Shown here piece after piece: positions 13,919 to 32,109 of a stretch of 64,000 bases of DNA. The notes beneath the pieces were generated by a model. It had not been told where the DNA came from, searched no databases, and saw only the letters and a program-made list of their open reading frames with translations. Each line of letters opens with the position of its first letter. The first letter of the stretch is position 1. A program made the translations under genes and the position numbers. The stretch comes from Anaerolineales bacterium (GTDB taxonomy: Bacteria; Chloroflexota; Anaerolineae; Anaerolineales; UBA4823), in assembly GCA_046259385.1 (NCBI GenBank), contig JBJYWI010000048.1:464-64463 (forward strand), written 5' to 3'.

Positions 13919-13936
13919 CAGTATTGGAGTTGTTCT

Positions 13937-14509
13937 ATGGCATACATGATCTTGATAGTAGTAATTGGATTGATTGTAATTTTTTCGATTTGGTTATGGC
14001 AGAATTCTCCTGGAAGCAGCGTTTTTGTTGCTACAGAAAAAACTGATCAGTTTCCGGAGGTTTCAGGATATAACCTCGATCGGAAGGAATTTATCTTTCC
14101 CCGGGACTTTGAGGGCGAACACAACTTGATTATGGTTGCCTTCCAACAATACCATCAGAATATTGTGAATACCTGGATACCACATGTGCAGGAATTAGAG
14201 GCAGAAACCCCCGGATTCGTTTATTATGAATTGCCGACAATCAAAGAGATGTCGCTAATAACGCGAACCTTCATTAATGAAGGTATGCGAGCTGGTATCC
14301 CGGACCAGACAGCCAGAGAAAGAACTGTTACTCTCTACATCGATAAAGATAAATTTACTGCCGCTTTGAATATCCCGGATGAAGATGATATATATTTGTT
14401 TCTGGTTGAAGAGGATGGGAGTATCATCTGGCGCGAAAAAGGTGCCTATGATGCAGAAAAAGCCGGCGCTCTTCAAGAGATTTTGCAGGAAAAGCTGAAT
14501 TTAAAATGA
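13937..14509 (+). CDS. Membrane-anchored hypothetical protein (possible cysteine-less thioredoxin-like fold)
   Basis: 190 aa with N-terminal [20 protein letters not shown]. Stop overlaps the next start (ATGA at 14506-14509). Confidence 0.45.
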
Positions 14510-15207
14510 GCACTGAAAATAATGGAAGCTATATTCGTTTGAACAATCTCTGGAAGGAGTTCAATGAAGGAAACCAGAAGCGTGAAGTCCTTCGAGGGAC
14601 TGGATCAGACTTCAAAAAGGGAGAGTTAATCGCAATTCTTGGTAAAAGCGGAAGCGGTAAAAGCACCCTTTTAAACATTATCAGCGGGATCGATATGCCG
14701 GACGAAGGGGATATTACTATCAACGGGTTAACGCTGACCCGTCTCGATGAAAACCGGCGCACTCTATTCCGGCGTGAAAATATTGGATTTATATTCCAAT
14801 TTTTTAACCTTATACCAACTCTTACAGTTGAAGAGAATGTGAGTTTGCCTTTAGAGTTGTTGGGTTCAGATACAAGCCATGCGAAATCTCAAGCTGCCGA
14901 AATATTGGATCGTGTTGGTCTGGTAGATAGACTTAACACATTCCCTGAACGATTGTCTGGCGGTGAACAGCAGCGGGTTGCGATTGCGCGCGCCTTGGTA
15001 CATGATCCCTTGCTTTTGCTGGCTGATGAACCCACAGGCAACCTGGACGAAGAAATTGGCGCGCAAATACTCTCTTTGCTTGACCAGCTTACCCGACAGG
15101 CTGGTAAAAATTTGATTTTGGTCACCCACAATAAAGAAAGTGCTGCATTTGCAGACCGGAAATTCGAACTTATTGGCGGCTGTCTCTATGAGGTAGATTC
15201 AGCTTGA
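14506..15207 (+). CDS. ABC transporter ATP-binding protein (AttE/YbbA/LolD-type)
   Basis: Walker [32 protein letters not shown]. Confidence 0.9.
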
Positions 15208-15229
15208 TACCAGATCCGGTGAACAAACA

Positions 15230-17800: not shown

Positions 17801-18959
17801 AAATGGGAATTCGGCTGGGATTGTTTTTATAATATTAATCACGCTCGCTGTTGTTTTGGGCGTGGCGGGCTTACGCCCGCTCGGGGCAAGCCAGGGCATT
17901 CCTGTAATTTTAACAAATTTTGATCCTCCAACTGGCTTCACCCGTGCTGAGGGCTATCGTGAATGGAATTTTCCCGAAGATTATGGACCCCACCTGGATT
18001 TCCAGACTGAATGGTGGTATTACACAGGCAATCTTCAAAGTAAAACTGGAGAACAGTTCGGATACCAGTTGACTTTTTTCAGGAGGGCGCTGCTTCCTAT
18101 TGAAGACCTCCCAGAACGCCAATCCGCATGGGCTGCAAACCAGATTTTTATGGCTCATTTTGCGATAACTGATGTTGAAGCCGGCGCGCATCACGATTTT
18201 GAAAGGTTTGCTCGCGGTGCAGCAGGATTGGCTGGTTCAGAAAACAAATTATTTCGAATATGGTTGGAAAACTGGCGGGTAGAACAGGTGGACGACCAGA
18301 GATTTACACTTCTAGCTTCCCAGGATGATATCAAACTGGATTTGTTTTTCGACAATCTCAAAGGTGTGATTTTTCATGGAGAGCAGGGTTACAGCCAAAA
18401 AGGGCCCGAACCAGGAAATGCCTCTTACTATTACAGCCAGACACGACTGGATACTTCTGGAACAATACAAATCGCCGAAGATGTATACCGTGTAAGCGGG
18501 TTGAGCTGGATGGATCATGAGTTCAGCACCAGCGCGCTCTCTGCCGGTCAGGTCGGTTGGGATTGGTTTTCAATACAGTTAGACGAAGGAAGTGAATTGA
18601 TGGTTTTTCAAATCCGCCGCGCAGATGGAAGTATCGATCTTTATTCAAGCGGCACCTGGATTGCTAAAGATGGGAAGACTCGACAACTCTCGAATGAACA
18701 GTTTGAAATAAAGGTAATAGATACCTGGCGCAGCCCAAATTCCGGGGCAGAATATCCTTCGGAATGGCTGCTGGTAGTGCCTGATCTTGAATTGCAGCTC
18801 GAGATAAAACCCTTGGTTGCAGACCAGGAAATGGATGTTTCATATGCCTACTGGGAAGGAGCGGTAAAAATTGAAGGTAACCAAAGTGATGCGCGAGTTT
18901 CAGGAATTGGTTATGTTGAGTTGACAGGATATGCGGAATCAATTGAAGGACAATTCTAG
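17793..18959 (+). CDS. Lipocalin-like CrtC/AttH family protein (carotenoid 1,2-hydratase superfamily)
   Basis: Start at M28 of the track ORF (ATG overlaps the permease stop; MSKNGNSAGIVFIILITLAVVLG signal/anchor). Motifs EWWYYTGNL, YYYSQTRL, SWMDHEF, GWDWFSIQL. Confidence 0.75.
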   Translation: MSKNGNSAGIVFIILITLAVVLGVAGLRPLGASQGIPVILTNFDPPTGFTRAEGYREWNFPEDYGPHLDFQTEWWYYTGNLQSKTGEQFGYQLTFFRRALLPIEDLPERQSAWAANQIFMAHFAITDVEAGAHHDFERFARGAAGLAGSENKLFRIWLENWRVEQVDDQRFTLLASQDDIKLDLFFDNLKGVIFHGEQGYSQKGPEPGNASYYYSQTRLDTSGTIQIAEDVYRVSGLSWMDHEFSTSALSAGQVGWDWFSIQLDEGSELMVFQIRRADGSIDLYSSGTWIAKDGKTRQLSNEQFEIKVIDTWRSPNSGAEYPSEWLLVVPDLELQLEIKPLVADQEMDVSYAYWEGAVKIEGNQSDARVSGIGYVELTGYAESIEGQF

Positions 18960-20421
18960 GGCGTTATCAGTTGAGAAAATCCTGGTCACGGGTGCCACCG
19001 GTTATATTGGCGGCAGGCTGGCGCCTGTCTTGCTTGATAAGGGTTACCATGTTCGGGTTATGGTTAGAGACCCTGCTCGTTTGCAGGGCCGGTCATGGGC
19101 TGACTTGGTAGACATAAAGAAGGGTGATGTACTAAAGCCGGGTACACTTCCGAAGGCGATGGAGGGGGTCGATACGGCGTATTATCTGATTCACAGCATG
19201 AGCGGAAGCGGGAATTTTCACGAACGCGACTTAATTGCGGCAGGTAATTTCGGATCAGCCGCGAAATCATCCGGGATTAAGCGAATTATTTACCTGGGAG
19301 GATTAGGTAATCCGGATGAAAATCTTTCGGAACACCTGAAATCGAGGCAGGAAACCGGGGCTGCGCTGGCGGAAGGCGGGGTTCCTGTGACTGAGTTCAG
19401 GGCGGCGATTATTGTTGGGTCCGGGAGTATATCATTTGAGATGATCCGCTACCTGACCGAGAGATTACCGGTCATGATCTGTCCGCGCTGGGTGTATACA
19501 CGTGTACAACCTATCGCGATCTCTGATCTGCTGGATTATCTTACTGCTGCCCTGGAAAATGAAGAAAGTATCGGCAGGATAGTTGAGGTTGGCGGTGTTG
19601 AGGTGATGACCTACGGAGATATGATGCTGGGATACGCACGCGAACGCGGCTTGAAGCGCTACCTGATCCCGGTGCCTGTCTTAACGCCCAGGCTGTCATC
19701 ATACTGGGTGCACTGGATGACACCTGTTCCATCAGACATTACCCGACCGCTGGTGGAAGGGCTGAAGAATGAGGTGATTGTTCATGACTTCAGCGCAGAA
19801 GAACTCTTTCCTGAAATTAAGCCGGTTGATTATGCTAGCGCTGTCAGGTCTGCTCTGGAAAACTTGGATTTAGGTGAGGTAGAAACCCGCTGGACAGACG
19901 CAATATCTTCCAGCTTAGGGGATCAGGATCCGGTGGTGATGAAAACCCAGGAAGGTATGATCATTGAACAACGGAAGATAAGGATAAATGCATCTCCAGA
20001 GCAAGTGTACACAGTATTTTCCCGCCTGGGAGGGGAAGCAGGCTGGTTGTATTTTGATTGGGCTTGGGAAATCCGGGGCATTATCGACCGTGTGTTCGGC
20101 GGGGTTGGTTTGCGTCGCGGCAGACGCGATCCTGTGGATATCCGGGTCGGTGATGCGGTTGATTTCTGGCGGGTTGAAACACTTGACCCGGGACGATTAA
20201 TATCACTTCGGGCTGAAATGAGACTGCCCGGAGAAGCCTGGCTGCAGTTTGAAGTCAAAAAAGATCAAGATGGCAGTTCTCGTCTTACGCAGACAGCCTT
20301 CTTTGCGCCAAAAGGTTTATTGGGTTTTTTATACTGGTACGGTTTGTATCCCATCCACAGGTTGATCTTCTCTGGGTTAATTCGCAAACTTAAACTAGTC
20401 TCAGAAATCGAAGAAGAATGA
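18931..20421 (+). CDS. NAD(P)H-binding SDR (NmrA-like) fused to a DUF2867-like C-terminal domain
   Basis: ILVTGATGYIGG Rossmann motif. C-terminal LISLRAEMRLPGEAWLQFEV resembles DUF2867. The start overlaps the previous gene by 29 nt and is uncertain. Confidence 0.7.
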   Translation: MRNQLKDNSRALSVEKILVTGATGYIGGRLAPVLLDKGYHVRVMVRDPARLQGRSWADLVDIKKGDVLKPGTLPKAMEGVDTAYYLIHSMSGSGNFHERDLIAAGNFGSAAKSSGIKRIIYLGGLGNPDENLSEHLKSRQETGAALAEGGVPVTEFRAAIIVGSGSISFEMIRYLTERLPVMICPRWVYTRVQPIAISDLLDYLTAALENEESIGRIVEVGGVEVMTYGDMMLGYARERGLKRYLIPVPVLTPRLSSYWVHWMTPVPSDITRPLVEGLKNEVIVHDFSAEELFPEIKPVDYASAVRSALENLDLGEVETRWTDAISSSLGDQDPVVMKTQEGMIIEQRKIRINASPEQVYTVFSRLGGEAGWLYFDWAWEIRGIIDRVFGGVGLRRGRRDPVDIRVGDAVDFWRVETLDPGRLISLRAEMRLPGEAWLQFEVKKDQDGSSRLTQTAFFAPKGLLGFLYWYGLYPIHRLIFSGLIRKLKLVSEIEEE

Positions 20422-20956: not shown

Positions 20957-20989
20957 AATTTGCGCAAAAAATGTGCAAATACTTGACAA
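20957..20989 (+). promoter_or_regulatory. Candidate CarH-type operator O2: three tandem 11-bp direct repeats upstream of the carH-like gene
   Basis: AATTTGCGCAA / AAAATGTGCAA / ATACTTGACAA at 20957, 20968 and 20979, in exact 11-bp phase. Fit nAnnTnn(A/G)CAn, with one deviation at position 2 of repeat 3. Repeat 3 contains the -35 TTGACA. Confidence 0.6.
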
Positions 20990-21011
20990 AACAACCTAAG
21001 TAATATAAACT
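20983..21011 (+). promoter_or_regulatory. Sigma-70-type promoter candidate for the carH-like gene
   Basis: TTGACA at 20983-20988. -10 candidates are TAAACT (17-nt spacer) or TATAAA (15-nt spacer). About 50 nt upstream of GTG 21061. Confidence 0.4.
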
Positions 21012-21060: not shown

Positions 21061-22377
21061 GTGGCAGAGATCAGTATTATTCCGACTTACAACTTAAAAG
21101 TGGTATTGAAGGAGACCGGGATAAAAGCGGACACATTACGGGCATGGGAACGCCGTTACGGTTTACCCCACCCTGACCGTACGGACGGCGGGCACCGTCT
21201 TTATTCGCAGTACGACATCAAGACCATTAGGTGGTTGCAGGCTCGTATTGATGAGGGACTCCGCATAAACCGGGCGGTCAAATTATGGCGCGGTATAGAA
21301 GAGTCTGGTCGGGACCCATTGCTAGAAATGCCTTTAGTGGATGCAGTTCGAGAACCCCAGCCATTTCCGGCTGTTTTGGGAGCATCAATCGTTGATCTAC
21401 GTAATCATTGGGTTGAAGCCTGTATGGATTTCAATGAAAGACAAGCGGAATACATCCTCGCACAGGCTTTTGCGAGTTATTCTGTTGAAGTAGTCTGTCT
21501 CGATATTATGGGAGCGGGTATATCTGAAATTGGAAAGCGCTGGTATCAGGGTAAAAGTACTGTGCAGCAGGAACATTTCGCTTCATCTCTGATTGTCAGG
21601 CGTTTAAATACTCTGATCTCAGCTGCTCCAGCGCCTACAAGAAGCGAGTGTGTTCTGGTTGCCTGCCCGCCACAGGAAGACCACATCATTTCCCCACTAA
21701 TGGTTACTTTGTTCCTGCGAAGAAGGGGGTTGAATGTTATTTATCTAGGAGCGAATGTCCCAATTGAGCGATTGGATAATGCGATCGAATCATCTGAATC
21801 CGATTTGGTTATTATGATCGCTCAGCAGTTATTCACCGCTGCGAATCTGCTTGAAGCAGCCCGTTTTATGGAAGAAAAGAACATGGCTTTTGGATTTGGG
21901 GGATTAGTATTTACTCTACTCCCTGAACTCAAGCAGAAAATTCCAGGCCATTATCTGGGCGATAAGCTGGATAGTGCGGTCAGTGTAATTGAGGATATTT
22001 TATTACGCCATCCATCTATCGATTCAAGTATCTCAGTGCCTGATAAATACTTAAAATCATGGAAGAAATTTACTGATCAGCAACCCCAAATAGAGGCGCA
22101 CCTGCGGGGAGTAATACAAAGAAATGGGATGCATGAAAGCCATCTCGAAATTGCCAACGAATACCTTGGACTTGATATAAGCGCTGCGCTGAGTCTTGGG
22201 GATATGGGACTGCTTAGCGAAGAGATCAACTGGGTGAAATTCCTACTCAAGAATTACGCGGTGCCTGTGGAACGGTTGCATGAGTACTTAGCACATTTCG
22301 GTAAAGCGATAGAGTTATATATGGAAGATGACGGAAAACCGATCCTGGAATGGTTAGACAGTGTGGAAGTGAGCTGA
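21061..22377 (+). CDS. MerR-family, cobalamin-binding light-responsive regulator (CarH/LitR-like) with about 130-aa C-terminal extension
   Basis: GTG start with AAAGGTGA SD. N-terminal MerR HTH (YNLKVVLKETGIKADTLRAWERRYGLPHP). Wx9EH motif (RWYQGKSTVQQEHF). B12 lower-ligand motif ExH in VLVACPPQEDHIISPLMV, followed by a Rossmann-type B12 domain. 438 aa versus about 290-300 aa for characterised CarH proteins (recollection). Confidence 0.8.
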   Translation: MAEISIIPTYNLKVVLKETGIKADTLRAWERRYGLPHPDRTDGGHRLYSQYDIKTIRWLQARIDEGLRINRAVKLWRGIEESGRDPLLEMPLVDAVREPQPFPAVLGASIVDLRNHWVEACMDFNERQAEYILAQAFASYSVEVVCLDIMGAGISEIGKRWYQGKSTVQQEHFASSLIVRRLNTLISAAPAPTRSECVLVACPPQEDHIISPLMVTLFLRRRGLNVIYLGANVPIERLDNAIESSESDLVIMIAQQLFTAANLLEAARFMEEKNMAFGFGGLVFTLLPELKQKIPGHYLGDKLDSAVSVIEDILLRHPSIDSSISVPDKYLKSWKKFTDQQPQIEAHLRGVIQRNGMHESHLEIANEYLGLDISAALSLGDMGLLSEEINWVKFLLKNYAVPVERLHEYLAHFGKAIELYMEDDGKPILEWLDSVEVS

Positions 22378-22472
22378 CCCTGTAATTCTATTTTTGATTT
22401 GATTCCAATACAGATCAAATGGAAATCTGTGATGCGAAATCGAAATATTGAAAAAGGTTTATGGAGGATACG

Positions 22473-23411
22473 ATGATTGTCGTTACCGGAGGTTCGGGTT
22501 ATATCGGTAGCCATATAGTCAAGAGATTAGCCAGCGAGGGGAGACATGTCCGCGCTATGATTCGCAGCCGGCAGCGAACATTACAGGAAAGCCGCCTGGC
22601 TGGATTCGATATAGAACTAGTTGAGGCGGATGTAACTGATGCAGATTCATTAAAACCCGCCTTTACGAAAGCAGATGCGGTCATCCATACTGTTGCAATC
22701 GCGATCGAAAGAGAAGGTACTACATATGAGGAAATAAATTTGATGGGTACAGTGAATGTCCTCCGAGCAGCCCGGGATGCCGGTATCCAGAGATTCATCA
22801 ACTTATCCCAGTTAGGAGCGGATTCGGGGCTTCCGTACCGATTCTTGGCATCGAAAGGCAGAGCCCAGGAGTATGTAGCCCGTTCGGAATTGGATTGGAC
22901 TGCGTTTCGACCATCAGTGATATGGGGTCCGGAAGACGAGTTCGCGAATACATTTGCCAGGTTGATCCTGATAACTCCGATTATCTTTCCGAATGTTGAC
23001 AAAAAAGCCAGGTTTCAGCCGCTCTGGGTTGAAGACCTGGTTACCTGCATCTTCAAGTCGCTGGAAGATAAAAATACATACCGCCAGCAATATGAAATTG
23101 GCGGTCCAGAGATACTGACCCTTGAAGAGATTGAGAGACGCACTCTAGAAGCGATGGGTACTCGAAGAATTATGGTCCCATTTCCGAAACCTCTATTGAA
23201 AACTGCAGTTGGGCTGATTGAAAAAGTGCTGCCTAACCCTCCGGTAACTCAAAGTCTGCTCGAATTGCTTCAAGTTGATAATGTCACCAGCGAAAACACT
23301 GTTTATCAATTCGTTGAAAACCCGAAGGCATTCACGCCTGATGCAATAAAGGGTTATATGCAGGAATTTAAAGCGCGCGATACGCTATCGCAATACCTCG
23401 GGCGATCATAG
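22473..23411 (+). CDS. NAD(P)H-binding atypical SDR (NDUFA9/NmrA-like epimerase family)
   Basis: Start at M5 of the track ORF (GGAGGA SD). MIVVTGGSGYIGSHIV. Confidence 0.8.
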   Translation: MIVVTGGSGYIGSHIVKRLASEGRHVRAMIRSRQRTLQESRLAGFDIELVEADVTDADSLKPAFTKADAVIHTVAIAIEREGTTYEEINLMGTVNVLRAARDAGIQRFINLSQLGADSGLPYRFLASKGRAQEYVARSELDWTAFRPSVIWGPEDEFANTFARLILITPIIFPNVDKKARFQPLWVEDLVTCIFKSLEDKNTYRQQYEIGGPEILTLEEIERRTLEAMGTRRIMVPFPKPLLKTAVGLIEKVLPNPPVTQSLLELLQVDNVTSENTVYQFVENPKAFTPDAIKGYMQEFKARDTLSQYLGRS

Positions 23412-23432: not shown

Positions 23433-23876
23433 ATGAAGATTTATAAGCACGAATTCAGGGTAACCGCACCCGTAGCTGAGGTGGCGGAGTTTCACGGCGA
23501 CACTCGGGCGCTGAAATTACTCACGCCACCCCCTTTAGTGGTCAAATTCCATGAGGTGGAAAGTTTAGCTGAAGGCTCACTCTCTGATTTTACATTCTGG
23601 TTGGGACCAATCCCTGTACGCTGGAAAGCCATCCATAAAGATGTGGACTTAAATTCGGGCTTTAAGGATATTCAACTTGAAGGGCCTTTCAAATTCTGGG
23701 AGCATACTCATACTTTCTTAGAAAGTGAATCCGATCGAACGATCGTCAGGGATGAGATCAAAGCTGAGTTCAGCAATCATCCTTACCGGAGATTGGTTTG
23801 CCGGATGATGTGGGCAAATCTGCCAGGCCTTTTTGCTTACCGAAAATCGAGAACGAAATTAGCGCTTGAACCATGA
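23433..23876 (+). CDS. SRPBCC (START/cyclase-dehydrase fold) ligand-binding protein
   Basis: 147 aa. Size and pattern are typical of SRPBCC. Stop overlaps the next start (ATGA at 23873-23876). Confidence 0.55.
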   Translation: MKIYKHEFRVTAPVAEVAEFHGDTRALKLLTPPPLVVKFHEVESLAEGSLSDFTFWLGPIPVRWKAIHKDVDLNSGFKDIQLEGPFKFWEHTHTFLESESDRTIVRDEIKAEFSNHPYRRLVCRMMWANLPGLFAYRKSRTKLALEP

Positions 23877-25426
23877 AAAGAGTTGTTGTTATTGGGGCGG
23901 GTTTCGGCGGACTGACAACTGCAGCTGAAATAGCTAGGCAGGGTCTGGATGTGACTGTGCTCGAGGCGCATGTGTATCCTGGAGGCAGCGCTGGAACTTT
24001 TTTCCATCAAGGTTATCTTTTTGATGCCGGGGCAACTTTAGCAGGAGGATTTGCTGAAGGCGCGCCTATGAATATGCTGGGCAGCAGGTTTGATATAGAC
24101 TGGCAGGAAAAATATGTAAAAGAAGCTATGGTTGTCCATCTTCCGGATGGAGAAACGGTGACCCGCTGGACGGATGATGGTCGCTGGCGTGAAGAGAGAA
24201 CTTCTGTTTTTGGAACGGATGCAGAACCATTCTGGAATTGGCAGGAGCGAACAGCTGAAGGTCTATGGGATTTAGCCCAGCGAAATCCTGAATGGCCTCC
24301 ACAGTCGGTAAGAGGTGCTATCAATTTACTCCAGACTGGTTACTCATGGTTGAGTGCCCGCCGGTTGGATAAAAGAGAAATTAACTTAACTGCATATATG
24401 CCATATATGTTCCTGCCGGTTTCTTCAAAAATGAAAAACATCCCCGACCTCCTGCGATTGTATATTAACGGCCAACTTTTAATCTCCGCGCAGGATACAA
24501 GCGATAAGGTCAACGCCCTCTACGGTGCTGCGGCGCTTGACCTGCCCAGAAGAGGTGTGGCGAATGTTCCTGGGGGGATGGGGGGTATGGCTAAAAAACT
24601 TGTCGAAAGGGTAGTGAACTATGGGGGAAAAGTAATATTCAGAAAGGAAGTAATTAGTGTTTCGGATTTTTCTGATAAAAAATTTTTAATCCGCACTAAA
24701 CGGGGTGGGGAATATATTTCGGATGCGGTTGTCTTTAACCAGACTCCCTGGAATGTGGCGAAACTATTGGAGACGCAAGAATACAGGAAGCTGAATACTC
24801 TTGGTGAGCTCCCCAGGGATAACTGGGGCGCCTTTGTTGTTTACGCCGGCATAGATTCCAAAGGTGTACCGGATAATTTCCCCGAGCACCACCAGGTAAT
24901 CCATTCAGAACCTTTAGGTGAAGGAAATAGCATTTTCCTGTCAATTTCTCCAGCCTGGGACAATACCCGTGCTCCGGAAGGAAAACGGTCGATCACGATA
25001 TCAACACACACCAGACTGGATACATGGTGGCGTTTATATCGAAATAGCCGTCCAGAATATGAAGACCGTAAATCGCGCTACATTGAGAGGATTCTCAATG
25101 TGGCTGAGCAGGCATTCCCCGGTATTAAATCATATGCAGAAATGTTACTCCCTGGTTCGCCGGTCACATTCGAACGGTTTACGCGAAGGGAAAAAGGCTG
25201 GGTTGGAGGTTTTCCGCAAACCAGCCTATTCCGTACTTGGGGACCAAAAATTGCTCCCGGAATATGGATAGTTGGCGATTCAATATTCCCCGGACAGTCC
25301 GTGCCAGCAGTTGTGTTAGGAGGATTGCGAGTTGCAGATGGATTGATGGGGGAACTGGCTTATAGAAATCAGAAATCCTGGTTCTACAAACAGGGGAAAA
25401 CCGGTGAGATTCAATGCGCCGGATGA
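23873..25426 (+). CDS. CrtI/phytoene-desaturase-family FAD-dependent oxidoreductase (CrtD/CrtH/UfaD-like)
   Basis: N-terminal dinucleotide fold VVVIGAGFGGLTTAAEIARQGLDVTVLEAHVYPGGSAGTF. 517 aa. C-terminal GDSIFPGQSVPAV. Confidence 0.8.
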   Translation: MKRVVVIGAGFGGLTTAAEIARQGLDVTVLEAHVYPGGSAGTFFHQGYLFDAGATLAGGFAEGAPMNMLGSRFDIDWQEKYVKEAMVVHLPDGETVTRWTDDGRWREERTSVFGTDAEPFWNWQERTAEGLWDLAQRNPEWPPQSVRGAINLLQTGYSWLSARRLDKREINLTAYMPYMFLPVSSKMKNIPDLLRLYINGQLLISAQDTSDKVNALYGAAALDLPRRGVANVPGGMGGMAKKLVERVVNYGGKVIFRKEVISVSDFSDKKFLIRTKRGGEYISDAVVFNQTPWNVAKLLETQEYRKLNTLGELPRDNWGAFVVYAGIDSKGVPDNFPEHHQVIHSEPLGEGNSIFLSISPAWDNTRAPEGKRSITISTHTRLDTWWRLYRNSRPEYEDRKSRYIERILNVAEQAFPGIKSYAEMLLPGSPVTFERFTRREKGWVGGFPQTSLFRTWGPKIAPGIWIVGDSIFPGQSVPAVVLGGLRVADGLMGELAYRNQKSWFYKQGKTGEIQCAG

Positions 25427-25450
25427 GTGAATTCTGAAAGGAGAAGAAAT

Positions 25451-26401
25451 ATGAAAGTAGGTATTGTAGGCGCAGGACAGGTAGGTGCTACGGCAGCCTA
25501 TTCACTTGTAATGCGTGGAATCGGGCGTGAGTTGATCCTGGTTGATATAAATAACCAGCGCGCAAAGGCGGAAGCAGATGATATTCTGCATGCAGTTCCT
25601 TTTGCTCACCCGCTTCAGATTTCAGCTGGCGGGTACTCTGACCTGAGCGGTTGCCGGGTTGTGGTTATAACAGCCGGCGCAGCTCAAAAACAGGGGGAAA
25701 CCCGTTTGCAGCTCCTGGAGCGCAACGCGGCGATCTTCAGTCAGATTATTCCCCGGGTACTTGAGAACGCCTCGGATGCAGTTCTGCTGGTTGCAACCAA
25801 TCCAGTGGATGTCTTAACCCATCTGACAGCCCATATCGCCTCCGGGTACAGTGTCCCCAGCTCACGGGTGATTGGTTCCGGAACCACACTTGATACTGCC
25901 CGTTTCCGGGCACTTCTGGGACAGCACCTTGGTATTGACCCGCCGCATGTCCATGGTTATGTCCTGGGCGAACATGGCGATTCCGAAGTTTTAACCTGGT
26001 CCCTGGTGAAGGTAGGTGGTGTGCCTCTCGCCGAATTCTGCCGCCAGTGGGATATATGCACAGATGAAAAGGTTCAGCAGGATATAACAAATTGGGTTCG
26101 CAATGCTGCATACTCGATTATTGAAGGCAAGGGTAGCACCAATTTTGGGATCGGCAGCGCGCTTACGAGGATTGTGGAGGTGATACTGGGGAACCAAAGG
26201 TCCCTGCTTACAGTTTGCACTCCCATTAAACGGGTGGCAGGGGTAGAAAACGTCACCATATCAATGCCCCATCTTATTGGTGGCAGCGGAATTATGGATA
26301 CTATCCTGCTGCCGCTTGCTTTGAATGACGAGGAAGAGGCAGCATTGCACAGCTCGGCGAAAACGGTAAAAGAGGCGATTGATACTCTTGATTTGAGGTA
26401 G
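25451..26401 (+). CDS. ldh: L-lactate dehydrogenase
   Basis: Start at M9 of the track ORF (AAAGGAGAAG SD). [16 protein letters not shown] signature LGEHGDSEV. Gln at the substrate-specificity position ([11 protein letters not shown]). Confidence 0.85.
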
Positions 26402-26410
26402 GGTTTTTCT

Positions 26411-27838
26411 ATGCAGGCGATTTCTATATGGTGGATCAGGCGTGACCTGAGACTTTCTGATAACCATACTCTTAATGCTGCGATAAATTATTCCGAGCAG
26501 GTTGTTCCGCTGTTTATTATCGACCCCAAGCTGGTTTCTTCAGAACGGGTTGGCTCGAAAAGGTTGGAATTTTTATGGGGAGGTCTGGCTGAGCTGGATA
26601 GATCATTGCGTGAACGTGGCAGCCGTCTGGTTATTCGAAAAGGATCGCCTCTTGAGATATTAACGACTGTGATTGATGAGTGTGGAGCTTCGAAAATATT
26701 CGCGGAGGCTGACTATTCTGCCTATGCCCGCCAACGAGATAAAAAGATCGCTCAAAATCTTCCACTGGTTCTTATGGGTTCGCCGGGAGTGTCAGCACCG
26801 GGTCAGGTGCTTAAGTTGGATGGTTCCCCCTACACTGTGTTTACGCCATATAAAAAAAGATGGTTGTCTGAAGTCCTGCCTTTGGATAGTGATATATTGC
26901 CAGTTCCCGAACAAATCAAATCGCCGGACAAGTTATTTGGCGAGGATATATCAAACCGGTTAAATTCGGCGGATACGATTGGATTTTTACCCGGTGAAAA
27001 TGAAGCTCTCCAGCGGCTTCAGAGATTCACCCGAATTGATAATGGCGCCATTTTTATGTATTCCGCTGAGCGGGATCGTATGGACCTAGAAGGGACTTCC
27101 AAGCTATCTCCTTATCTTAAATTCGGAATGATTTCTGCCAGTCGAGCAGTGAGTAATGCTGTTGAGTTGATTGATTCTGTTCCAGGGGGCACGGCTCAGA
27201 AAAGTGCTGAGACCTGGTTGAACGAGTTGATCTGGCGTGATTTCTACATTTCTATCTTGTATCACTTTCCCTTTGTGGCGGATACGAGCTTTAGAGCTGA
27301 TATGAGGAATATCCGCTGGGTGAATTCCCACTGGGAGTTTAAACAGTGGTGCCAAGGACAGACCGGGTATCCCGTGGTTGATGCCGGGATGCGCCAGCTT
27401 GCCCAAACCGGCTGGATGCACAACCGGGCCAGGATGATCACTGCCTCTTTCCTAGTCAAGGATTTGTTGATCGATTGGCGTTGGGGGGAGGCTTGGTTCA
27501 TGAAGCAACTGATCGATGGTGATCCGGCTGCAAACAACGGAGGGTGGCAGTGGACTGCCGGCACAGGAACGGATGCTGCGCCTTATTTCCGAATTTTTAA
27601 CCCGGTAACCCAGGGAATAAAATTTGATCCTTCGGGTGTCTATATCCGCCGGTGGGTGCCTGAACTTCAAAATGTTCCAGACAAATATATCCATAAGCCC
27701 TGGGAAATGCCGGTGGATACTCAATTATCATGTGGCTGCCGAATTGGAACGGATTATCCTGAGCCGTTAGTCGATCACATCTTCGCACGCCAAAGGGCTC
27801 TTGAAACGTATAAAACTGCCAAAGTGCAAAATAGGTGA
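26411..27838 (+). CDS. phr: Deoxyribodipyrimidine photo-lyase (class I CPD photolyase)
   Basis: 475 aa with TSKLSPYLKFGMIS, WRDFY, GWMHNRARMITASFLVKDL, DGDPAANNGGWQWTAGTGTDAAPYFRIFNP. Confidence 0.92.
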   Translation: MQAISIWWIRRDLRLSDNHTLNAAINYSEQVVPLFIIDPKLVSSERVGSKRLEFLWGGLAELDRSLRERGSRLVIRKGSPLEILTTVIDECGASKIFAEADYSAYARQRDKKIAQNLPLVLMGSPGVSAPGQVLKLDGSPYTVFTPYKKRWLSEVLPLDSDILPVPEQIKSPDKLFGEDISNRLNSADTIGFLPGENEALQRLQRFTRIDNGAIFMYSAERDRMDLEGTSKLSPYLKFGMISASRAVSNAVELIDSVPGGTAQKSAETWLNELIWRDFYISILYHFPFVADTSFRADMRNIRWVNSHWEFKQWCQGQTGYPVVDAGMRQLAQTGWMHNRARMITASFLVKDLLIDWRWGEAWFMKQLIDGDPAANNGGWQWTAGTGTDAAPYFRIFNPVTQGIKFDPSGVYIRRWVPELQNVPDKYIHKPWEMPVDTQLSCGCRIGTDYPEPLVDHIFARQRALETYKTAKVQNR

Positions 27839-27844: not shown

Positions 27845-28369
27845 GTGAAAATTTTTAACCGGAAGGATATTACTGAAAAGAAGACCGAAACTCACTTAAA
27901 CAACCATGCCCCCGATTTTTCCGCGAAGGATATTGATGGAAATATGATAGCCCTTTCACAATTCCGGGATAAGAAAAATGTATTCCTGGTATTTAATCGA
28001 GGCTTTACATGACCTTACTGCCGAAGGCATATGGCGCAGTTGCGCCGTGATTACGAAAAGTTTAAAGAAAGGGGAGTCGAGGTCATTATAGTTGGTCCGG
28101 AAGAAGAAGAGGTTTTCAGATACCATTGGAAAAAGGGTGAATATCCATTTGTTGGAATCGCTGATCCAGACCATAAAATTGCGGATTTATACAACCAACA
28201 GGTCAAAATATTAAAAATGGGCCGGATGCCGGCTCAAGTAATTATTGATAAGGATGGTTTCATCAGATCCCAACATCACGGAGTTTCGATGCGTGACATC
28301 CTTGAAAATACAACTGTTTTGAATCTATTTGACAAAATTAACTCAGAGAATGAGATCATTAATTATTAA
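27845..28369 (+). CDS. Peroxiredoxin-like/redoxin (AhpC-TSA fold) selenoprotein candidate, UxxC active site (TGA 28010-28012 read as Sec)
   Basis: GTG 27845 lies 6 nt after an AGGTGA SD. Hand translation: VKIFNRKDITEKKTETHLNNHAPDFSAKDIDGNMIALSQFRDKKNVFLVFNRGFT-U-PYCRRHMAQLRRDYEKFKERGVEVIIVGPE... The TGA occupies the first Cys of the redoxin CxxC motif. The track lists only the 3' part (28031..28369). Confidence 0.7.
28031..28048 (+). promoter_or_regulatory. SECIS-like hairpin 18 nt downstream of the in-frame UGA
   Basis: AUGGCGC-AGUU-GCGCCGU: 7-bp stem (one G-U pair) and a 4-nt loop containing GU. A smaller UGCC-GAA-GGCA hairpin precedes it. Confidence 0.5.
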
Positions 28370-28433: not shown

Positions 28434-28907
28434 TTGATAGGGAATTCTGTGAGCGAACTAAGAACAGAGAAGTTGCATGTTGAGTTGTTGGATGGCATAG
28501 GAGAAGATGGACCAGTAATGCCAAGAAGGTATACTCTGACCCATTCAGACAGAACAGGGGATTTATTTCTCAGTATTGGACCAGATTACAATCATCCTCA
28601 GATATCAGGTTTATATACTCGATTGATGCGTGATGAGGTGCTGGCTGAATGGGTTCTTGATGGAAATGATGTGCAATTAATCATTCATTGTCATGTAAGC
28701 GGAGGCTTTGCATTTGGCCCTGCCAGCTGGCGGATGTCTATATTCAGGCAGCATTTACCGATGGTGATTACGGCTTTTAAATTCGGTGATTCGGATTTAT
28801 TTGCTGCACATCAGGAATTAAGCAAATCGAGAGTTTCCATCCATTTCCACTCGGTTCAGGACAGGTATAACATCGTTGAAGATTGGGGATCGATAGACAA
28901 CTTTTAG
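28434..28907 (+). CDS. Stay-Green (SGR) family protein, Mg-dechelatase homolog
   Basis: PRRYTLTHSDRTGDLFLSIG ... RLMRDEVLAEWV ... LIIHCHVSGGFAFG ... FRQHLPMVITAF parallels plant SGR (PRTYTLTHSDIT..., YRDEVVAEW, HVHCHISGG, ELPVVLKAF) as I recall it. The start (TTG 28434 or GTG 28449) is uncertain. Confidence 0.75.
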   Translation: MIGNSVSELRTEKLHVELLDGIGEDGPVMPRRYTLTHSDRTGDLFLSIGPDYNHPQISGLYTRLMRDEVLAEWVLDGNDVQLIIHCHVSGGFAFGPASWRMSIFRQHLPMVITAFKFGDSDLFAAHQELSKSRVSIHFHSVQDRYNIVEDWGSIDNF

Positions 28908-28954
28908 ATTGATTAAGCCGCAATTGAGGTATTGAATCTTTCAGGTTTATAGTA

Positions 28955-29803
28955 ATGTTGAAGAATAGAGTGGCGATTATCACCGGTGGCACCCGAGGTC
29001 TTGGGTTTGGAATTGCAAAGGCTTTTGTTCAGGCGGGAGCGAAAGTATTTGTAGCTTCAAGGTCAGCTGATTCGGTCGAGCAATCTATTTCTGTGTTGAG
29101 ATCGATGGGTGGGGAAGTAGATGGAAAGGTATGCGATGTTGGTTCACTGAGTGATGTTGAAGATATATCTCTTAGAGCAGTTAAACAACTTGGAAAAATC
29201 GATATCTGGGTAAATAATGCCGGTATATCCGCGCCGTATGGTCCGACCATCCATATACCTTATGAAGAGATTCTTAAGGTAATCCAAACTAACATCCTCG
29301 GCACATATCACGGGTCGCTGGTTGCAATGCGGTATTTCCTGAAACAGGGTCAGGGTAAACTCATTAATGTTTCCGGGAGGGGAGATAAAGGACCGGTACC
29401 GCTTCAGAATGCTTATGCTTCCTCTAAAAGCTGGGTTCATAGTTTCACATTGGCGCTGGCGGATGAGTATAAAAACAGCGGGGTTGGTGTTTATTTGTTC
29501 AGACCTGGAATCGTGGATACGGATATGTTGAGAAAAGTGGAAGTGATTGAAGGTTATCAGTCTCGGATTGAACCATTAAAAACGGTAATTCGGATGTGGG
29601 GTAATAAACCCGAGGTTCCTGCCATGAAAGCAGTCTGGCTGGCTTCACATGCAACGGATGGGAAAACCGGTCTTGTGGTAAATGTTTTCAACCCTCGGCT
29701 TATGTTTTGGGGATTGTTTCGAGAGACACTTGGAAGAATCTTGCGGCGTGACATTGAGCAAATTGAGATTGCGGTAAATACAATAGAGCCGGATATTAAT
29801 TAG
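28955..29803 (+). CDS. Classical SDR with resemblance to chlorophyll b reductase NOL/NYC1
   Basis: ITGGTRGLGFGIA, IDIWVNNAG, VSGRGDKGPVPLQNAYASSKSWVHSFT, RPGIVDTDML. Recalled NOL: IDIWINNAG, DGAGSDGRPTPRFAAYGATKRSVVHLT, SPGMVTTDLL. The SDR call is firm; the NOL likeness is tentative. Confidence 0.8.
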   Translation: MLKNRVAIITGGTRGLGFGIAKAFVQAGAKVFVASRSADSVEQSISVLRSMGGEVDGKVCDVGSLSDVEDISLRAVKQLGKIDIWVNNAGISAPYGPTIHIPYEEILKVIQTNILGTYHGSLVAMRYFLKQGQGKLINVSGRGDKGPVPLQNAYASSKSWVHSFTLALADEYKNSGVGVYLFRPGIVDTDMLRKVEVIEGYQSRIEPLKTVIRMWGNKPEVPAMKAVWLASHATDGKTGLVVNVFNPRLMFWGLFRETLGRILRRDIEQIEIAVNTIEPDIN

Positions 29804-29912: not shown

Positions 29913-30200
29913 ATGGCAAATATCAGACGCCTTGTGCTGGATACACTTAAACCGCACGAACCAGGCATCATAGAAATGGCAGAAGAGCTGGGAGACATTG
30001 TTGGGATTATGGCAGTTAATATAAGCATATATGAACTTGACCGAAAAGTTGAGAACGCAAAAATCACAATAGAGGGAGAGAATGTACCTTACATTCAGGT
30101 CGTAAAAGTGATCGAAGAGATGGGCGGATCGATCCATTCGGTTGATGAAGTTGTAGCGGGCAAGAAAATTATTGATGATGCCGCCACCTTGCTGGATTGA
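29913..30200 (+). CDS. DUF211 (COG1888) family protein
   Basis: 95 aa. MANIRRLVLDTLKPHEPGIIEMAEEL matches my recollection of DUF211. The antisense ORF 29796..30239 is rejected. Confidence 0.6.
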   Translation: MANIRRLVLDTLKPHEPGIIEMAEELGDIVGIMAVNISIYELDRKVENAKITIEGENVPYIQVVKVIEEMGGSIHSVDEVVAGKKIIDDAATLLD

Positions 30201-30269
30201 ATCTGCACAATCCATGCTGGAATAAGATAATACAAGCAAGGGTTAATAAAAGACGAGGAGCTGCTTAAT

Positions 30270-30866
30270 ATGAGATCCTTACTGGATGCAGTTTCGTATT
30301 TAAGAGAATATGACAAGCTGGCAAATATCGGTGAGATCGCCAGGCGTTATTTTGCAATGAATGCTTTCGATGGGGTGCTGACAATCATCGGCGTTTTGAT
30401 GGGTAACTTCATGGCTGGAGTGCAGGAGCCAAGAATTGTTGTCAGCACTGGACTTGCTACATGCGTTGCGATGGGAGTATCGGGGTTATGGGGCGCTTAC
30501 CTTACAGAAGCAGCCGAACGAAAGCGGGACCTTAACGAGTTAAGCCGGTATACACTGACCGACCTGAACCAAACCAGGATCGGACGGGCATCACGCGCTG
30601 CGGTTGTAGTTGTGGCGGTGGTGGATGGCTTGTCACCGTTTATGGCAGCAATGATCGTCCTGACACCGTTCTTTTTTGCCCCCATATTTCCCTCAATTCA
30701 AATGGTTTATTTTGTTGCGCTTGGGATGGCGCTGGTGACCCTGTTTGCGTTGGGGCTGTTCCTGGGCCGCGTTTCACAAGGCAACCTGCTTGTTTACGGG
30801 CTTAAAACAATATTTGCCGGAGTGATCTCAATTGGTATCAGCTTTCTACTGGGGGAATGGAGATAA
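30270..30866 (+). CDS. VIT1/CCC1-like membrane protein (possible Fe/Mn transporter)
   Basis: 198 aa with about five TM helices. MNAFDGVLTIIGVLMG resembles the VIT-family N-terminal motif. Confidence 0.5.
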   Translation: MRSLLDAVSYLREYDKLANIGEIARRYFAMNAFDGVLTIIGVLMGNFMAGVQEPRIVVSTGLATCVAMGVSGLWGAYLTEAAERKRDLNELSRYTLTDLNQTRIGRASRAAVVVVAVVDGLSPFMAAMIVLTPFFFAPIFPSIQMVYFVALGMALVTLFALGLFLGRVSQGNLLVYGLKTIFAGVISIGISFLLGEWR

Positions 30867-31305: not shown

Positions 31306-32082
31306 TTATCCTGCGGTGCCTCCACCGTCGACTGCAAGTACGGCGCCGGTAATAAAGGAAGCGCCATCGCTGCATAGAAACAGAACTGTCCGGGCGATTT
31401 CCTCCGGCAAACCAATCCTTCCCATTGGTCGTCCCGCTGAAGCCTTCATAAATTCATCTTCCGGCACATTGAGCTGGAGGGCTTCATCACGCAGCATTGG
31501 CGTTGATGTATCACCAGGACAGATGCAGTTCACCCGTATGTTGTCGGGACTGTGATCGATTGCCATAGCCCGGGTCATGTTAACCACCCCGCCCTTGGAT
31601 GCACAGTAGGATACGGCGTCCTGTCCGCCCAACAACCCCCAACCGGATGAGGTATTTACGATCGCTCCACCCCCAGATTTCACCATAAATGGGATGGCGT
31701 ATTTGCTCATCAGAAAAATTGATTTCAGATTTACTGCCATAACCCTATCCCAATCTTCTTCAGAGAGAGTCAGCACGGATGCCCTGCGGATAATCCCGGC
31801 ATTATTGAAAAGGAAATCGATCCCGCCGTAAGTTTCAACAGTTCTGGAAACCGCATTCTGGCAATCAAACGACGAGGTCACATCGCATGGGATGAAGATA
31901 ACCTCACCTCCGGAGATTTGTAATTCATCCTCAGCATGCCGCCCAGCAGATTCATCGATGTCAGCGATTGCTACTCGCGCGCCTGCCATGGCGAAGAGCC
32001 GTGCGGTTTGGAAGCCAATACCAGATGCTCCACCGGTGATGAGAACGGTTTTTCCCTCAAAATGGAATTCAATCTGATTCAT
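31306..32082 (-). CDS. SDR family oxidoreductase (FabG/glucose-1-dehydrogenase-like)
   Basis: Start at M10 of the track ORF (AGGAGA SD). VLITGGASGIGF, NNAG, YCASKGG. Confidence 0.85.
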   Translation of the reverse strand: MNQIEFHFEGKTVLITGGASGIGFQTARLFAMAGARVAIADIDESAGRHAEDELQISGGEVIFIPCDVTSSFDCQNAVSRTVETYGGIDFLFNNAGIIRRASVLTLSEEDWDRVMAVNLKSIFLMSKYAIPFMVKSGGGAIVNTSSGWGLLGGQDAVSYCASKGGVVNMTRAMAIDHSPDNIRVNCICPGDTSTPMLRDEALQLNVPEDEFMKASAGRPMGRIGLPEEIARTVLFLCSDGASFITGAVLAVDGGGTAG

Positions 32083-32109
32083 CTTTCTCTCCTGCTGGAA
32101 CGGATTCAA

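What the first reader, a model, noticed from the sequence alone, without database searches (positions are those of the whole stretch)
28434..29803. Stay-Green (Mg-dechelatase family) homolog adjacent to an SDR resembling chlorophyll b reductase: a two-gene chlorophyll-breakdown-like module
In plants, NYC1/NOL (an SDR) and SGR catalyse the first committed steps of chlorophyll degradation. Here an SGR-family gene (PRRYTLTHSD, HCHVSGG motifs) is followed 47 nt later by an SDR. Its unusual GxGxxGxxxPxxxAYxxxKxxVH segment and C-terminal tail resemble NOL as I remember it. Bacterial SGR homologs, including Anaerolineae ones, have been reported to have Mg-dechelating activity, but their physiological role is unclear. 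Their location at the end of a putative light-induced operon suggests detoxification of photosensitising (bacterio)chlorophylls taken up from phototrophic neighbours.
Basis: partly seen in the sequence, partly recalled or inferred. Interest (0 to 1): 0.8.

Follow-up and report, generated by a model that had tools for sequence, protein, structure and literature searches.

The report
Stay-Green gene in a light-stress operon
A bacterial relative of the plant "stay-green" enzyme that strips magnesium from chlorophyll sits, with an unusual reductase, inside a gene cluster that looks switched on by light, giving a first testable clue to what this enzyme does in bacteria that do not photosynthesise.

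Summary
Both genes are real and lie at the stated coordinates. ORF 28434-28907 is a full-length Staygreen protein (Pfam E=3e-46). It is 57% identical to the crystallised, active Anaerolineae Mg-dechelatase homolog (PDB 7y5y) and keeps every residue shown essential by mutagenesis. ORF 28955-29803 is a NADP-type classical SDR. It shares a rare active-site loop with plant NOL: Gly replaces the catalytic Ser within G-x-G. It is 38-39% identical to NOL over the core. However, it forms its own bacterial family outside the NOL/NYC1 circle, and its C-terminal third is unrelated to NOL. The SGR-SDR adjacency holds only in the window's own lineage (3 syntenic relatives). It is absent from about 40 other SGR loci and from 5 of 5 other loci of this SDR family. 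The light-operon context holds up better. A CarH-like regulator with a conserved triple 11-bp operator over its -35 box heads an 11-gene same-strand cluster that includes photolyase and a UxxC selenoperoxiredoxin. In Chloroflexota, SGR recurrently neighbours photolyase, UvdE, CarH, RudS or that selenoprotein. Verdict: a known enzyme family in a newly noted light-stress context. The two-gene chlorophyll-breakdown module is only weakly supported.

The parts
20957..21011 (+). Candidate CarH operator (three tandem 11-bp repeats AATTTGCGCAA AAAATGTGCAA ATACTTGACAA, 20957-20989) overlapping the -35 box of the best sigma-70-like promoter (TTGACA-17-TAAACT, 20983-21011)
   Evidence: 10/12 promoter match; 12/15 match to nAnnTnnACAn x3, only 4 such sites in the whole window on both strands, and the same architecture upstream of carH in L037.
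21061..22377 (+). CarH/LitR-like regulator (MerR HTH plus B12-binding domains; 438 aa, with a C-terminal extension of about 140 aa)
   Evidence: MerR_1, B12-binding_2, B12-binding. (NF052513 CarH 135.7 bits, below the 400 cut-off).
22461..23411 (+). NAD(P)-binding NmrA/epimerase-like protein
   Evidence: 71% identical in L037.
23433..23876 (+). Conserved 147-aa protein with no family match
   Evidence: no hit. 58% identical in L037. Not similar to DUF2867.
23873..25426 (+). CrtD/carotenoid-isomerase-like FAD oxidoreductase (phytoene-desaturase superfamily)
   Evidence: Amino_oxidase. (TIGR02733 249 bits, below the cut-off).
25427..26401 (+). L-lactate dehydrogenase
   Evidence: TIGR01771 344 bits, above the 303.55 cut-off.
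26411..27838 (+). CPD photolyase
   Evidence: DNA_photolyase and FAD_binding_7. (PRK10674 432 bits).
27845..28369 (+). AhpC/TSA-type peroxiredoxin-like gene with an in-frame TGA at 28010-28012 (motif GFT-U-PYC). Probable selenoprotein. SECIS-like hairpin at about 28030-28049.
   Evidence: TGA with conserved flanks in 8 loci, and a compensatory change in the hairpin in L003. (8-bp stem, -15.7 kcal/mol).
28434..28907 (+). Staygreen-family Mg-dechelatase homolog (likely true start GTG 28449). Catalytic D39, D67 and H37 conserved.
28955..29803 (+). Atypical classical SDR: TGGTRGLG, ASRS (NADP-type), NNAG, Y154-x3-K158. G141 replaces the catalytic Ser. Family-specific C-terminal helix and strand.
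29913..30866 (+). DUF211 (29913-30200) and VIT1-family metal transporter (30270-30866), the last same-strand genes of the cluster
   Evidence: Pfam on orthologues. 80-89% identical in L036 and L037.
7539..20421 (.). Flanking photoprotection-type genes: FolE (7539-8192, -), DegV (8232-9068, -), FeS-BCP/CryB-type photolyase-related protein (11023-12576, +), short SDR (12695-13345, +), CrtC-like lipocalin (17712-18959, +), NmrA-DUF2867 (18931-20421, +)

Best explanation
The two ORFs are the eighth and ninth genes of an 11-gene, roughly 10-kb same-strand cluster. The cluster starts with a CarH-like, B12-dependent photoreceptor/repressor and its operator.

Proposed sequence of events:
- In the dark, CarH should sit on the triple 11-bp repeat over the -35 box.
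- Light should release it and switch on a photoprotection set: CPD photolyase, a UxxC selenoperoxiredoxin, a CrtD-like desaturase, the Staygreen enzyme and the SDR.
- The Staygreen protein is almost certainly a working Mg-dechelatase of the AbSGR-h type. Its likely job is to demetallate Mg-chlorins, such as chlorophyll or bacteriochlorophyll derivatives picked up from phototrophic neighbours, when the cell is illuminated.
- The SDR is an NADPH-dependent reductase of a hydrophobic carbonyl. It belongs to a widespread bacterial family distantly allied to NOL through a shared Ser-to-Gly G-x-G active-site loop. It was recruited into this operon only in the window's lineage.

SGR and the SDR are co-expressed neighbours, not a conserved two-enzyme module.

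Shown: gene identities, conserved residues, the operator, synteny and neighbourhood statistics. Inferred: light induction, the in vivo substrate of either enzyme, and any coupling between them.
For: - SGR: Pfam E=3e-46. It is 57% identical and ungapped to the active, crystallised AbSGR-h. R31, Y33, T34, H37, D39, D67 and D119 equal the essential R26, Y28, T29, H32, D34, D62 and D114 of AbSGR-h (PMC8531759).
- Operon: same strand, gaps of 0-109 nt, and no intergenic terminator-like site.
- Regulator and operator: CarH domain architecture, and a triple 11-bp repeat over the -35 box conserved in L037.
- Synteny: the whole cluster is syntenic in L036, the P0123 contig and L037 at 56-89% protein identity.
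- SGR neighbourhoods: among 13 loci whose SGR is at least 51% identical, 7 carry photolyase, UvdE, CarH or RudS within about 10 kb. The count is 9 if the selenoperoxiredoxin is included and 10 with NmrA-DUF2867. None of 27 Bacillota/archaeal SGR loci do.
- Wider context: the window flanks add FolE, a CryB-type protein and a CrtC-like lipocalin. This matches the experimentally defined Pseudomonas LitR regulon of phrB, cryB, folE, an SDR and an FAD oxidoreductase (PMC9758184). RudS is documented in light operons (PMC11417400).
- SDR: 38-39% identical to NOL. It scores 106.5 bits on NOL's scale against 37-46 for generic SDRs. It shares Gly-for-Ser in a G-x-G loop. It is a separate family (100/100 bootstrap) with only 40/100 support for grouping with NOL. 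There is no C-terminal homology. The family sits in unrelated contexts in 5 of 5 other loci.
Against: - No expression data exist, and internal promoters ahead of SGR cannot be excluded.
- The CarH score is below the NCBIfam equivalog cut-off (135.7 against 400). The operator repeats read GCA where the Thermus consensus has ACA.
- The neighbourhood census has no matched random-gene control within Chloroflexota.
- From general knowledge of tetrapyrrole photochemistry, pheophytin and pheophorbide remain strong photosensitisers. Mg removal alone does not detoxify, and the window has no obvious PPH- or PAO-like gene.
- The in vitro chlorophyll activity of bacterial SGRs has been interpreted as promiscuous (Obata et al. 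2019, as cited in PMC8531759 and PMC9306834), so the native substrate may not be a chlorin.
- The SGR-SDR pair stayed adjacent while NmrA-DUF2867 moved between the window and L037. That is weak evidence for some coupling.
Confidence: 0.6

Rival explanations
1. SGR and the SDR form a dedicated two-step chlorophyll-catabolic module. The SDR acts like NOL, reducing the 7-formyl of Chl b (or another formyl or acetyl group of a chlorin or bacteriochlorin) so that SGR can then remove Mg.
For: - Shared Ser-to-Gly G-x-G loop and P-x-P-x3-A-Y motif with NOL.
- NADP-type signatures in both proteins (sequence).
- From NOL's side, the window SDR is closer than any PDB SDR.
- The tree places the family next to the NOL set in the point estimate.
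- Adjacency is retained in three relatives despite rearrangement of a neighbouring gene.
Against: - Adjacency is absent from about 40 other SGR loci.
- The SDR family sits in housekeeping or unrelated contexts in 5 of 5 other loci.
- At least 332 representative clusters are closer to NOL.
- Bootstrap support for grouping with NOL is only 40%.
- The C-terminal substrate-side region is unrelated.
- The NOL loop has an extra residue and a Ser (GAGS) that this family lacks.
- No HCAR-, PPH- or PAO-like genes are in the window.
Confidence: 0.15
2. SGR is a light-regulon member, but its native substrate is not chlorophyll. It acts on another metal chelate or has a non-dechelatase role. The SDR is a general reductase for photo-oxidation-derived carbonyls, like the uncharacterised SDRs of LitR regulons.
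For: - SGR homologs are widespread in non-phototrophs, including Bacilli, Clostridia and Asgard archaea.
- The literature calls the chlorophyll activity promiscuous and the physiological role unknown (PMC8531759, PMC9306834).
- LitR regulons contain an SDR and an FAD oxidoreductase without SGR (PMC9758184).
- The SDR family is common in non-light contexts.
Against: - All chlorophyll-dechelation catalytic residues are strictly kept, and identity to a highly active homolog is 57%.
- No alternative substrate is suggested by any neighbour.
- alpha/beta-hydrolases recur next to SGR in several loci. That echoes the plant SGR-then-pheophytinase order.
Confidence: 0.2
3. The arrangement is inherited synteny with no shared regulation. 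SGR and the SDR are transcribed from their own promoters, independent of CarH and light.
For: - Gaps of 64-79 nt before SGR and 47 nt before the SDR contain weak promoter-like matches (28508-28535, 28924-28953).
- Promoter-like sites occur in the region at the level expected by chance.
Against: - The light/UV theme around SGR recurs in independently arranged Chloroflexota loci (L002, L003, L005, L045, L048).
- No terminator-like site lies between photolyase and the SDR outside coding sequence.
Confidence: 0.05

Closest known systems
AbSGR-h, the Mg-dechelatase homolog of Anaerolineae bacterium SM23_63 (PDB 7y5y; Obata 2019; Dey 2021, PMC8531759; PMC11006732)
   Same: Same Pfam family and the same length class. 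57% identity without gaps. All residues essential by mutagenesis are conserved. Same phylum-level source.
   Different: The sequences differ at 43% of positions. Nothing was published, in the library searched, on the genomic context of AbSGR-h. Here the gene lies in a CarH-headed cluster.
Plant chlorophyll(ide) b reductase NOL / NYC1
   Same: Classical SDR with NADP-type basic residues. Gly replaces the canonical catalytic Ser within an N-x-x-G-x-G loop followed by P-x-P-x3-A-Y-x3-K. 38-39% identity over about 195 residues.
   Different: Separate family. The loop is one residue shorter and lacks the GAGS serine. The C-terminal 90 residues are unrelated. There is no transit peptide. Hundreds of clusters are closer to NOL.
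CarH/LitR light-inducible regulons (Thermus, Myxococcus, Bacillus; class II LitR of Pseudomonas, PMC9758184)
   Same: A MerR plus B12-binding regulator at the head. Tandem 11-bp repeats over the -35 box. The cargo includes photolyase, a CryB-type protein, FolE, an SDR and an FAD oxidoreductase.
   Different: The cargo includes a Staygreen protein, a UxxC selenoperoxiredoxin, LDH and DUF211/VIT1. No crtB or crtI is in the window. The regulator carries an extra C-terminal region of about 140 aa.
Actinorhodin ketoreductase and glucose 1-dehydrogenase type SDRs
   Same: Best sequence hits (about 105 bits) and best structural hits (TM about 0.77) among solved structures.
   Different: These have the canonical catalytic Ser and lack the C-terminal helix and strand extension.

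Membership tests
Staygreen / Mg-dechelatase (PF12638) | Full-length match to the family model above its gathering score | tested here: met
   157.2 bits against a cut-off of 27, profile positions 2-146 of 147
Staygreen / Mg-dechelatase (PF12638) | Catalytic D34 and D62 (and H32) of AbSGR-h conserved | tested here: met
   D39, D67 and H37 in the ungapped alignment to 7y5y. Roles from mutagenesis in PMC8531759.
Staygreen / Mg-dechelatase (PF12638) | Structural residues R26, Y28, T29 and D114 conserved | tested here: met
   R31, Y33, T34 and D119
Staygreen / Mg-dechelatase (PF12638) | Mg-dechelating activity on chlorophyll a | not testable with these tools
   Needs a recombinant enzyme assay
NOL/NYC1 chlorophyll b reductase | Classical SDR core with NADP-type residues | tested here: met
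   TGGTRGLG, ASRS, NNAG and Y154-x3-K158
NOL/NYC1 chlorophyll b reductase | Active-site loop with Gly at the canonical Ser position inside G-x-G | tested here: met
   G141-R-G143 against NOL D-G-A-G-S. All 11 generic SDRs have Ser. The loop is one residue shorter and lacks the GAGS Ser. The background sample is small.
NOL/NYC1 chlorophyll b reductase | Phylogenetic placement within the NOL/NYC1 clade | tested here: not met
   106.5 bits, while at least 150 representatives score 164 bits or more and 332 have E<=1e-30. Own family 100/100, nested in the NOL set 10/100.
NOL/NYC1 chlorophyll b reductase | Homologous C-terminal (substrate-side) region | tested here: not met
   Residues 190-282 hit 0 of 270 NOL-like proteins at E<=10, against 119 of 119 in the SDR's own family
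NOL/NYC1 chlorophyll b reductase | Chl b to 7-hydroxymethyl-Chl a activity | not testable with these tools
   Needs an enzyme assay
Conserved SGR-SDR two-gene module | Adjacency conserved across SGR loci of different lineages | tested here: not met
   Adjacent only in the window, in L036 and the P0123 contig, and in L037. Absent in L001-L035 and L045-L048.
Conserved SGR-SDR two-gene module | Members of the SDR family elsewhere lie next to SGR | tested here: not met
   0 of 5 (L039, L041, L043, L049, L050)
CarH/LitR light-regulated operon | Regulator with a MerR HTH plus a B12-binding domain | tested here: met
   MerR_1, B12-binding_2 and B12-binding
CarH/LitR light-regulated operon | Reaches the curated CarH equivalog score | tested here: not met
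   NF052513 135.7 bits against a cut-off of 400
CarH/LitR light-regulated operon | Tandem 11-bp direct repeats overlapping the -35 box | tested here: met
   20957-20989, 12/15 to the consensus, conserved in L037, 4 such sites in the window. The consensus was recalled from the Thermus CarH literature.
CarH/LitR light-regulated operon | Light- and AdoCbl-dependent derepression | not testable with these tools
   Needs expression or binding experiments
Bacterial UxxC selenoprotein (AhpC/TSA fold) | In-frame UGA at the redox Cys position, conserved with coding flanks | tested here: met
   8 loci, 7 of them independent
Bacterial UxxC selenoprotein (AhpC/TSA fold) | SECIS-like hairpin downstream of the UGA | tested here: inconclusive
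   Conserved 8-bp hairpin about 20 nt after the UGA, with one compensatory pair in L003. The z-score is only -1.8, and the hairpin overlaps the conserved coding sequence MAQLR.
Bacterial UxxC selenoprotein (AhpC/TSA fold) | selA, selB, selD and tRNA-Sec in the genome | not tested
   Only 64 kb are available. No tRNA-Sec is in the window.

The most novel reading that the evidence does not exclude
In Chloroflexota, Staygreen proteins are light-induced enzymes that disarm photosensitisers. In this lineage a G-x-G-type SDR works with SGR on chlorins. If so, both entry enzymes of plant chlorophyll breakdown (NOL/NYC1-type reductase and SGR) would descend from a bacterial light-stress operon of this kind.
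Probability: 0.08. Interest if true: 0.85.

Novelty: new variant of a known kind. Interest (0 to 1): 0.55.

Why it matters
Bacterial Staygreen homologs have a crystal structure and in vitro Mg-dechelatase activity, but their physiological role is stated to be unknown (PMC8531759). Here and in other Chloroflexota the gene sits within or beside light/UV-response genes: a CarH operon, photolyase, UvdE, RudS and a selenoperoxiredoxin. That turns the open question into a simple experiment: is SGR induced by light, and does it protect cells exposed to chlorophyll plus light?

The work also defines a bacterial SDR family that shares NOL's unusual Ser-to-Gly active-site loop. This is useful for tracing where chlorophyll b reductases came from. 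I found no paper in the searched library linking Staygreen with CarH or photolyase.

Tried and rejected
- Fold search of a high-confidence SDR model (pLDDT 94) returned only generic ketoreductases, with nothing on substrate.
- The 147-aa ORF is not a split-off DUF2867 domain.
- The context of the NOL-like representative closest to the window SDR (P0467) was a 1.7-kb contig and was uninformative.
- The cluster look-up of short NOL-like representatives gave almost no taxonomy. Two are labelled chlorophyll(ide) b reductase by JGI.
- Obata et al. 2019 is not held in the library.
- Rfam found only a tRNA.
- One of my bootstrap criteria ('fam+somegen_noNOL') is trivially satisfied by complements, so I ignored it.
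- Only 11 generic SDRs were available as tree background.
It was used only to retrieve authentic, source-named NOL proteins, and it matched one at 100% identity over 74% of its length.
- I considered the 112-aa 'short AhpC' to be a pseudogene fragment and rejected that. The in-frame TGA is conserved in distant loci.
Full report
OBSERVATION. The first ORF matches Pfam Staygreen over the whole model (E=3.3e-46, 157 bits against a cut-off of 27). Its only PDB relative is 7y5y, 'Staygreen domain-containing protein' (E=6.5e-51, about 57% identity, ungapped over 148 residues). The second ORF is a classical short-chain dehydrogenase (adh_short E=2.6e-46). It reaches no NCBIfam cut-off. The likelier SGR start is GTG 28449, because the 98%-identical database protein P0121 is 152 aa and AGGGA precedes that codon.

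THE STAYGREEN PROTEIN. In the Anaerolineae homolog AbSGR-h, mutagenesis showed that D34 and D62 are essential for catalysis. H32A is weakly active. R26, Y28, T29 and D114 are needed for a soluble fold (PMC8531759). With the ungapped offset of +5, the window protein has R31, Y33, T34, H37, D39, D67 and D119, so every one of these residues is conserved. I therefore treat it as a functional member of the family. [quoted passage not shown] PMC9306834 makes a similar point.

THE SDR AND NOL. I recalled the Arabidopsis NOL sequence and used it only as bait. The search returned about 120 authentic plant proteins named chlorophyll(ide) b reductase NOL by their sources, one of them 100% identical to the bait over 74% of its length. 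The comparisons gave the following results.
- Against these NOL proteins the window SDR is 38-39% identical over about 195 residues (118 bits). Against E. coli FabG it is 29% identical (83 bits), and against the FabG-like SDR at 31306..32109 it is 30% identical (80 bits).
- On NOL's own scale (phmmer, Z=1.8e9) it scores 106.5 bits (E=1.3e-25). The generic SDRs score 37-46 bits.
- No solved structure scores above 78.9 bits against NOL. So from NOL's side this family is a comparatively close relative.
- It is not a member of NOL's circle. An exhaustive search with Vitis NOL found 332 representative clusters with E<=1e-30, and the best 150 score 164 bits or more.
- From the SDR's side, NOL is no closer than actinorhodin ketoreductase or glucose dehydrogenase, which score about 105 bits.
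- All alignments end near residue 195. Residues 190-282 hit none of 270 NOL-like proteins at E<=10, yet hit 119 of 119 members of the SDR's own family.
- In a bootstrapped NJ tree on 195 core columns, the family is monophyletic in 100/100 replicates. It groups with the NOL set against 11 generic SDRs in only 40/100, and it nests inside the NOL set in 10/100.

The most telling feature is the active-site loop. The canonical catalytic Ser, 13 residues before the catalytic Tyr, is an invariant Gly (G141) in this family, within N-x-[SL]-G-[RQH]-G. It is also Gly in every NOL and NOL-like representative, within N-x-[DE]-G-A-G-S. All 11 generic SDRs have Ser there. The NOL loop is one residue longer and has a Ser that this family lacks. 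The AlphaFold model is confident (pLDDT 94.3), but its structural neighbours are generic ketoreductases.

IS THE PAIR A MODULE? Of 35 SGR loci from species-representative genomes, none has this SDR type within 10 kb. Closer relatives do keep the pair: a 12-kb JGI contig and L036 (SGR 69%, SDR 77%) and L037 (SGR 57%, SDR 62%). In those relatives, however, the entire cluster from carH to VIT1 is syntenic at 56-89% identity. The adjacency is therefore no more conserved than everything around it. Four further SGR loci (L045-L048) lack the SDR. Five loci carrying members of the SDR family at 54-58% identity have no SGR and no light-related gene. Their contexts are MarR/ABC, LysR/ADH, an isolated gene, FtsJ/LepA, and GAPDH/PGK. 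One small point in its favour remains: the pair stayed together while NmrA-DUF2867 changed place between the window and L037.

THE LIGHT CONTEXT. Eleven genes from 21061 to 30866 lie on one strand with gaps of 0-109 nt and no intergenic terminator-like site. In order they are:
- a CarH-like regulator (MerR plus B12-binding domains)
- an NmrA-like protein
- a 147-aa protein without a family
- a CrtD-like FAD oxidoreductase
- LDH
- CPD photolyase
- an AhpC/TSA protein
- SGR
- the SDR
- DUF211
- VIT1

The best promoter-like site in the region (TTGACA-17-TAAACT, 20983-21011) is overlapped by three tandem 11-bp repeats (AATTTGCGCAA AAAATGTGCAA ATACTTGACAA). This is the architecture I recall for the Thermus CarH operator. 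The same arrangement precedes carH in L037, and only four positions in the whole window on both strands score as high. Upstream, the window also encodes FolE, DegV, a CryB-type photolyase-related protein followed by another short SDR, a CrtC-like lipocalin and NmrA-DUF2867. The experimentally defined LitR regulon of Pseudomonas comprises phrB, cryB, folE, a short-chain dehydrogenase and an FAD-dependent oxidoreductase (PMC9758184). An SDR in such an operon is therefore expected without any link to chlorophyll.

SGR NEIGHBOURHOODS ELSEWHERE. I examined 13 loci whose SGR is at least 51% identical to the window's (L001-L006, L015, L036, L037, L045-L048).
- L002 has UvdE next to SGR.
- L003 has a CarH-like gene directly after SGR.
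- L005 has a CrtD-like oxidoreductase before SGR and a photolyase two genes after it.
- L048 has UvdE and a RudS-type gene.
- L045 has a RudS-type gene, DegV and NmrA-DUF2867.
- L046 has NmrA-DUF2867 overlapping the SGR start.

RudS is a UVA-related tRNA s4U desulfidase documented in light-responsive operons (PMC11417400). Seven of the 13 loci carry photolyase, UvdE, CarH or RudS. The count is nine when the selenoperoxiredoxin is included and ten with NmrA-DUF2867. None of 27 Bacillota or archaeal SGR loci do. Those loci show topoisomerase IV synteny or GGDEF response regulators. There is no matched control within Chloroflexota, so this is a pattern and not a statistic. No photosynthesis gene is present in the 64-kb window.

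MECHANISM. The steps that are shown are the gene identities, the residue conservation, the operator-like repeats, the synteny and the neighbourhood pattern. The steps that are inferred are the following. Light photolyses AdoCbl on the regulator and releases it from the promoter, and the cluster is then transcribed. SGR removes Mg from Mg-chlorins that entered the cell or membrane from phototrophic neighbours. The SDR uses NADPH (R14 and R36 are basic residues of the NADP type) to reduce a hydrophobic carbonyl.

One weakness comes from general knowledge of tetrapyrrole photochemistry: pheophytin and pheophorbide remain photosensitisers, so dechelation alone is not detoxification. alpha/beta-hydrolases sit beside SGR in L015, L010 and L047 (one family) and in L048 and L007. 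They might supply a pheophytinase-like next step in other lineages, but the window has none.

VERDICT. The SGR call, the unusual NOL-like loop and the light-operon setting all hold. NOL/NYC1 membership, the C-terminal resemblance and a conserved two-gene module do not. The SGR is a new member of a known, already characterised family. What appears new is its placement in a CarH-type light-stress regulon. No paper in the searched library combines Staygreen with CarH or photolyase.

Noticed in passing
window 27845-28369 (TGA at 28010-28012); also L003, L004, L006, L036, L037, L038, L045: The 'short AhpC/TSA' ORF is the C-terminal part of a 174-codon peroxiredoxin-like gene with an in-frame TGA that gives a U-x-x-C motif (NRGFx-U-P[YF]-C-R). 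The TGA, the coding flanks on both sides and a downstream hairpin are conserved in 7 independent loci, and L003 has a compensatory base-pair change. This is a probable selenoprotein, and it is the most frequent SGR neighbour in Chloroflexota.
   Followed up: partly
window 7539-20421: A wider photoprotection-type island lies upstream of carH. It contains FolE, DegV, a CryB/FeS-BCP-type photolyase-related protein followed by a 216-aa SDR, a CrtC-like double-lipocalin protein and an NmrA-DUF2867 fusion. It parallels the Pseudomonas LitR regulon.
   Followed up: partly
L015:8157-8939, L010:1966-2736, L047:8859-9677; also L048:7492-8487, L007:9242-9982: alpha/beta-hydrolases lie directly next to SGR in five loci from two phyla. 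Three of them belong to one Abhydrolase_5 family (48-63% identical). This recalls the plant order of SGR followed by pheophytinase.
   Followed up: partly
window SDR residue G141 (about 29375-29377) and alignment A1: The whole bacterial SDR family lacks the canonical catalytic Ser. It has an invariant Gly there, with invariant N152, W160 and W215 and a conserved C-terminal amphipathic helix. Members occur in Chloroflexota, Acidobacteria and Polyangia, in unrelated contexts.
   Followed up: partly
L045:2102-3082, L048:9470-10447, L002:10469-11374, L048:8484-9441: RudS-type (TudS desulfidase plus DUF1722) and UvdE genes lie near SGR in other Chloroflexota. UvdE in L048 is called as two pieces, so it may be frameshifted or contain a recoded site.
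   Followed up: no
window 18931-20421; L037:11376-12845; L046:5505-7004; L045:1-1204: A 490-500-aa NmrA-DUF2867 fusion protein travels with SGR but changes position. It lies before carH in the window and after the SDR in L037, and it overlaps the SGR start in L046. Its function is unknown.
   Followed up: no
window 25427-26401: A bona fide L-lactate dehydrogenase (above the TIGR01771 cut-off) sits inside the putative light operon between the CrtD-like gene and photolyase. It is 81% conserved in L037. That is an odd cargo for a photoprotection cluster.
   Followed up: no
window 21061-22377: The CarH-like regulator is 438 aa, about 140 aa longer than canonical CarH. The extension has no Pfam match and is conserved in L037 (439 aa) and L003.
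   Followed up: no
L001, L008, L009, L011: Staygreen homologs 47-56% identical to the window's occur on contigs labelled Bathyarchaeia, Hodarchaeota, Thorarchaeota and Heimdallarchaeota. This could be real transfer or binning error.
   Followed up: no
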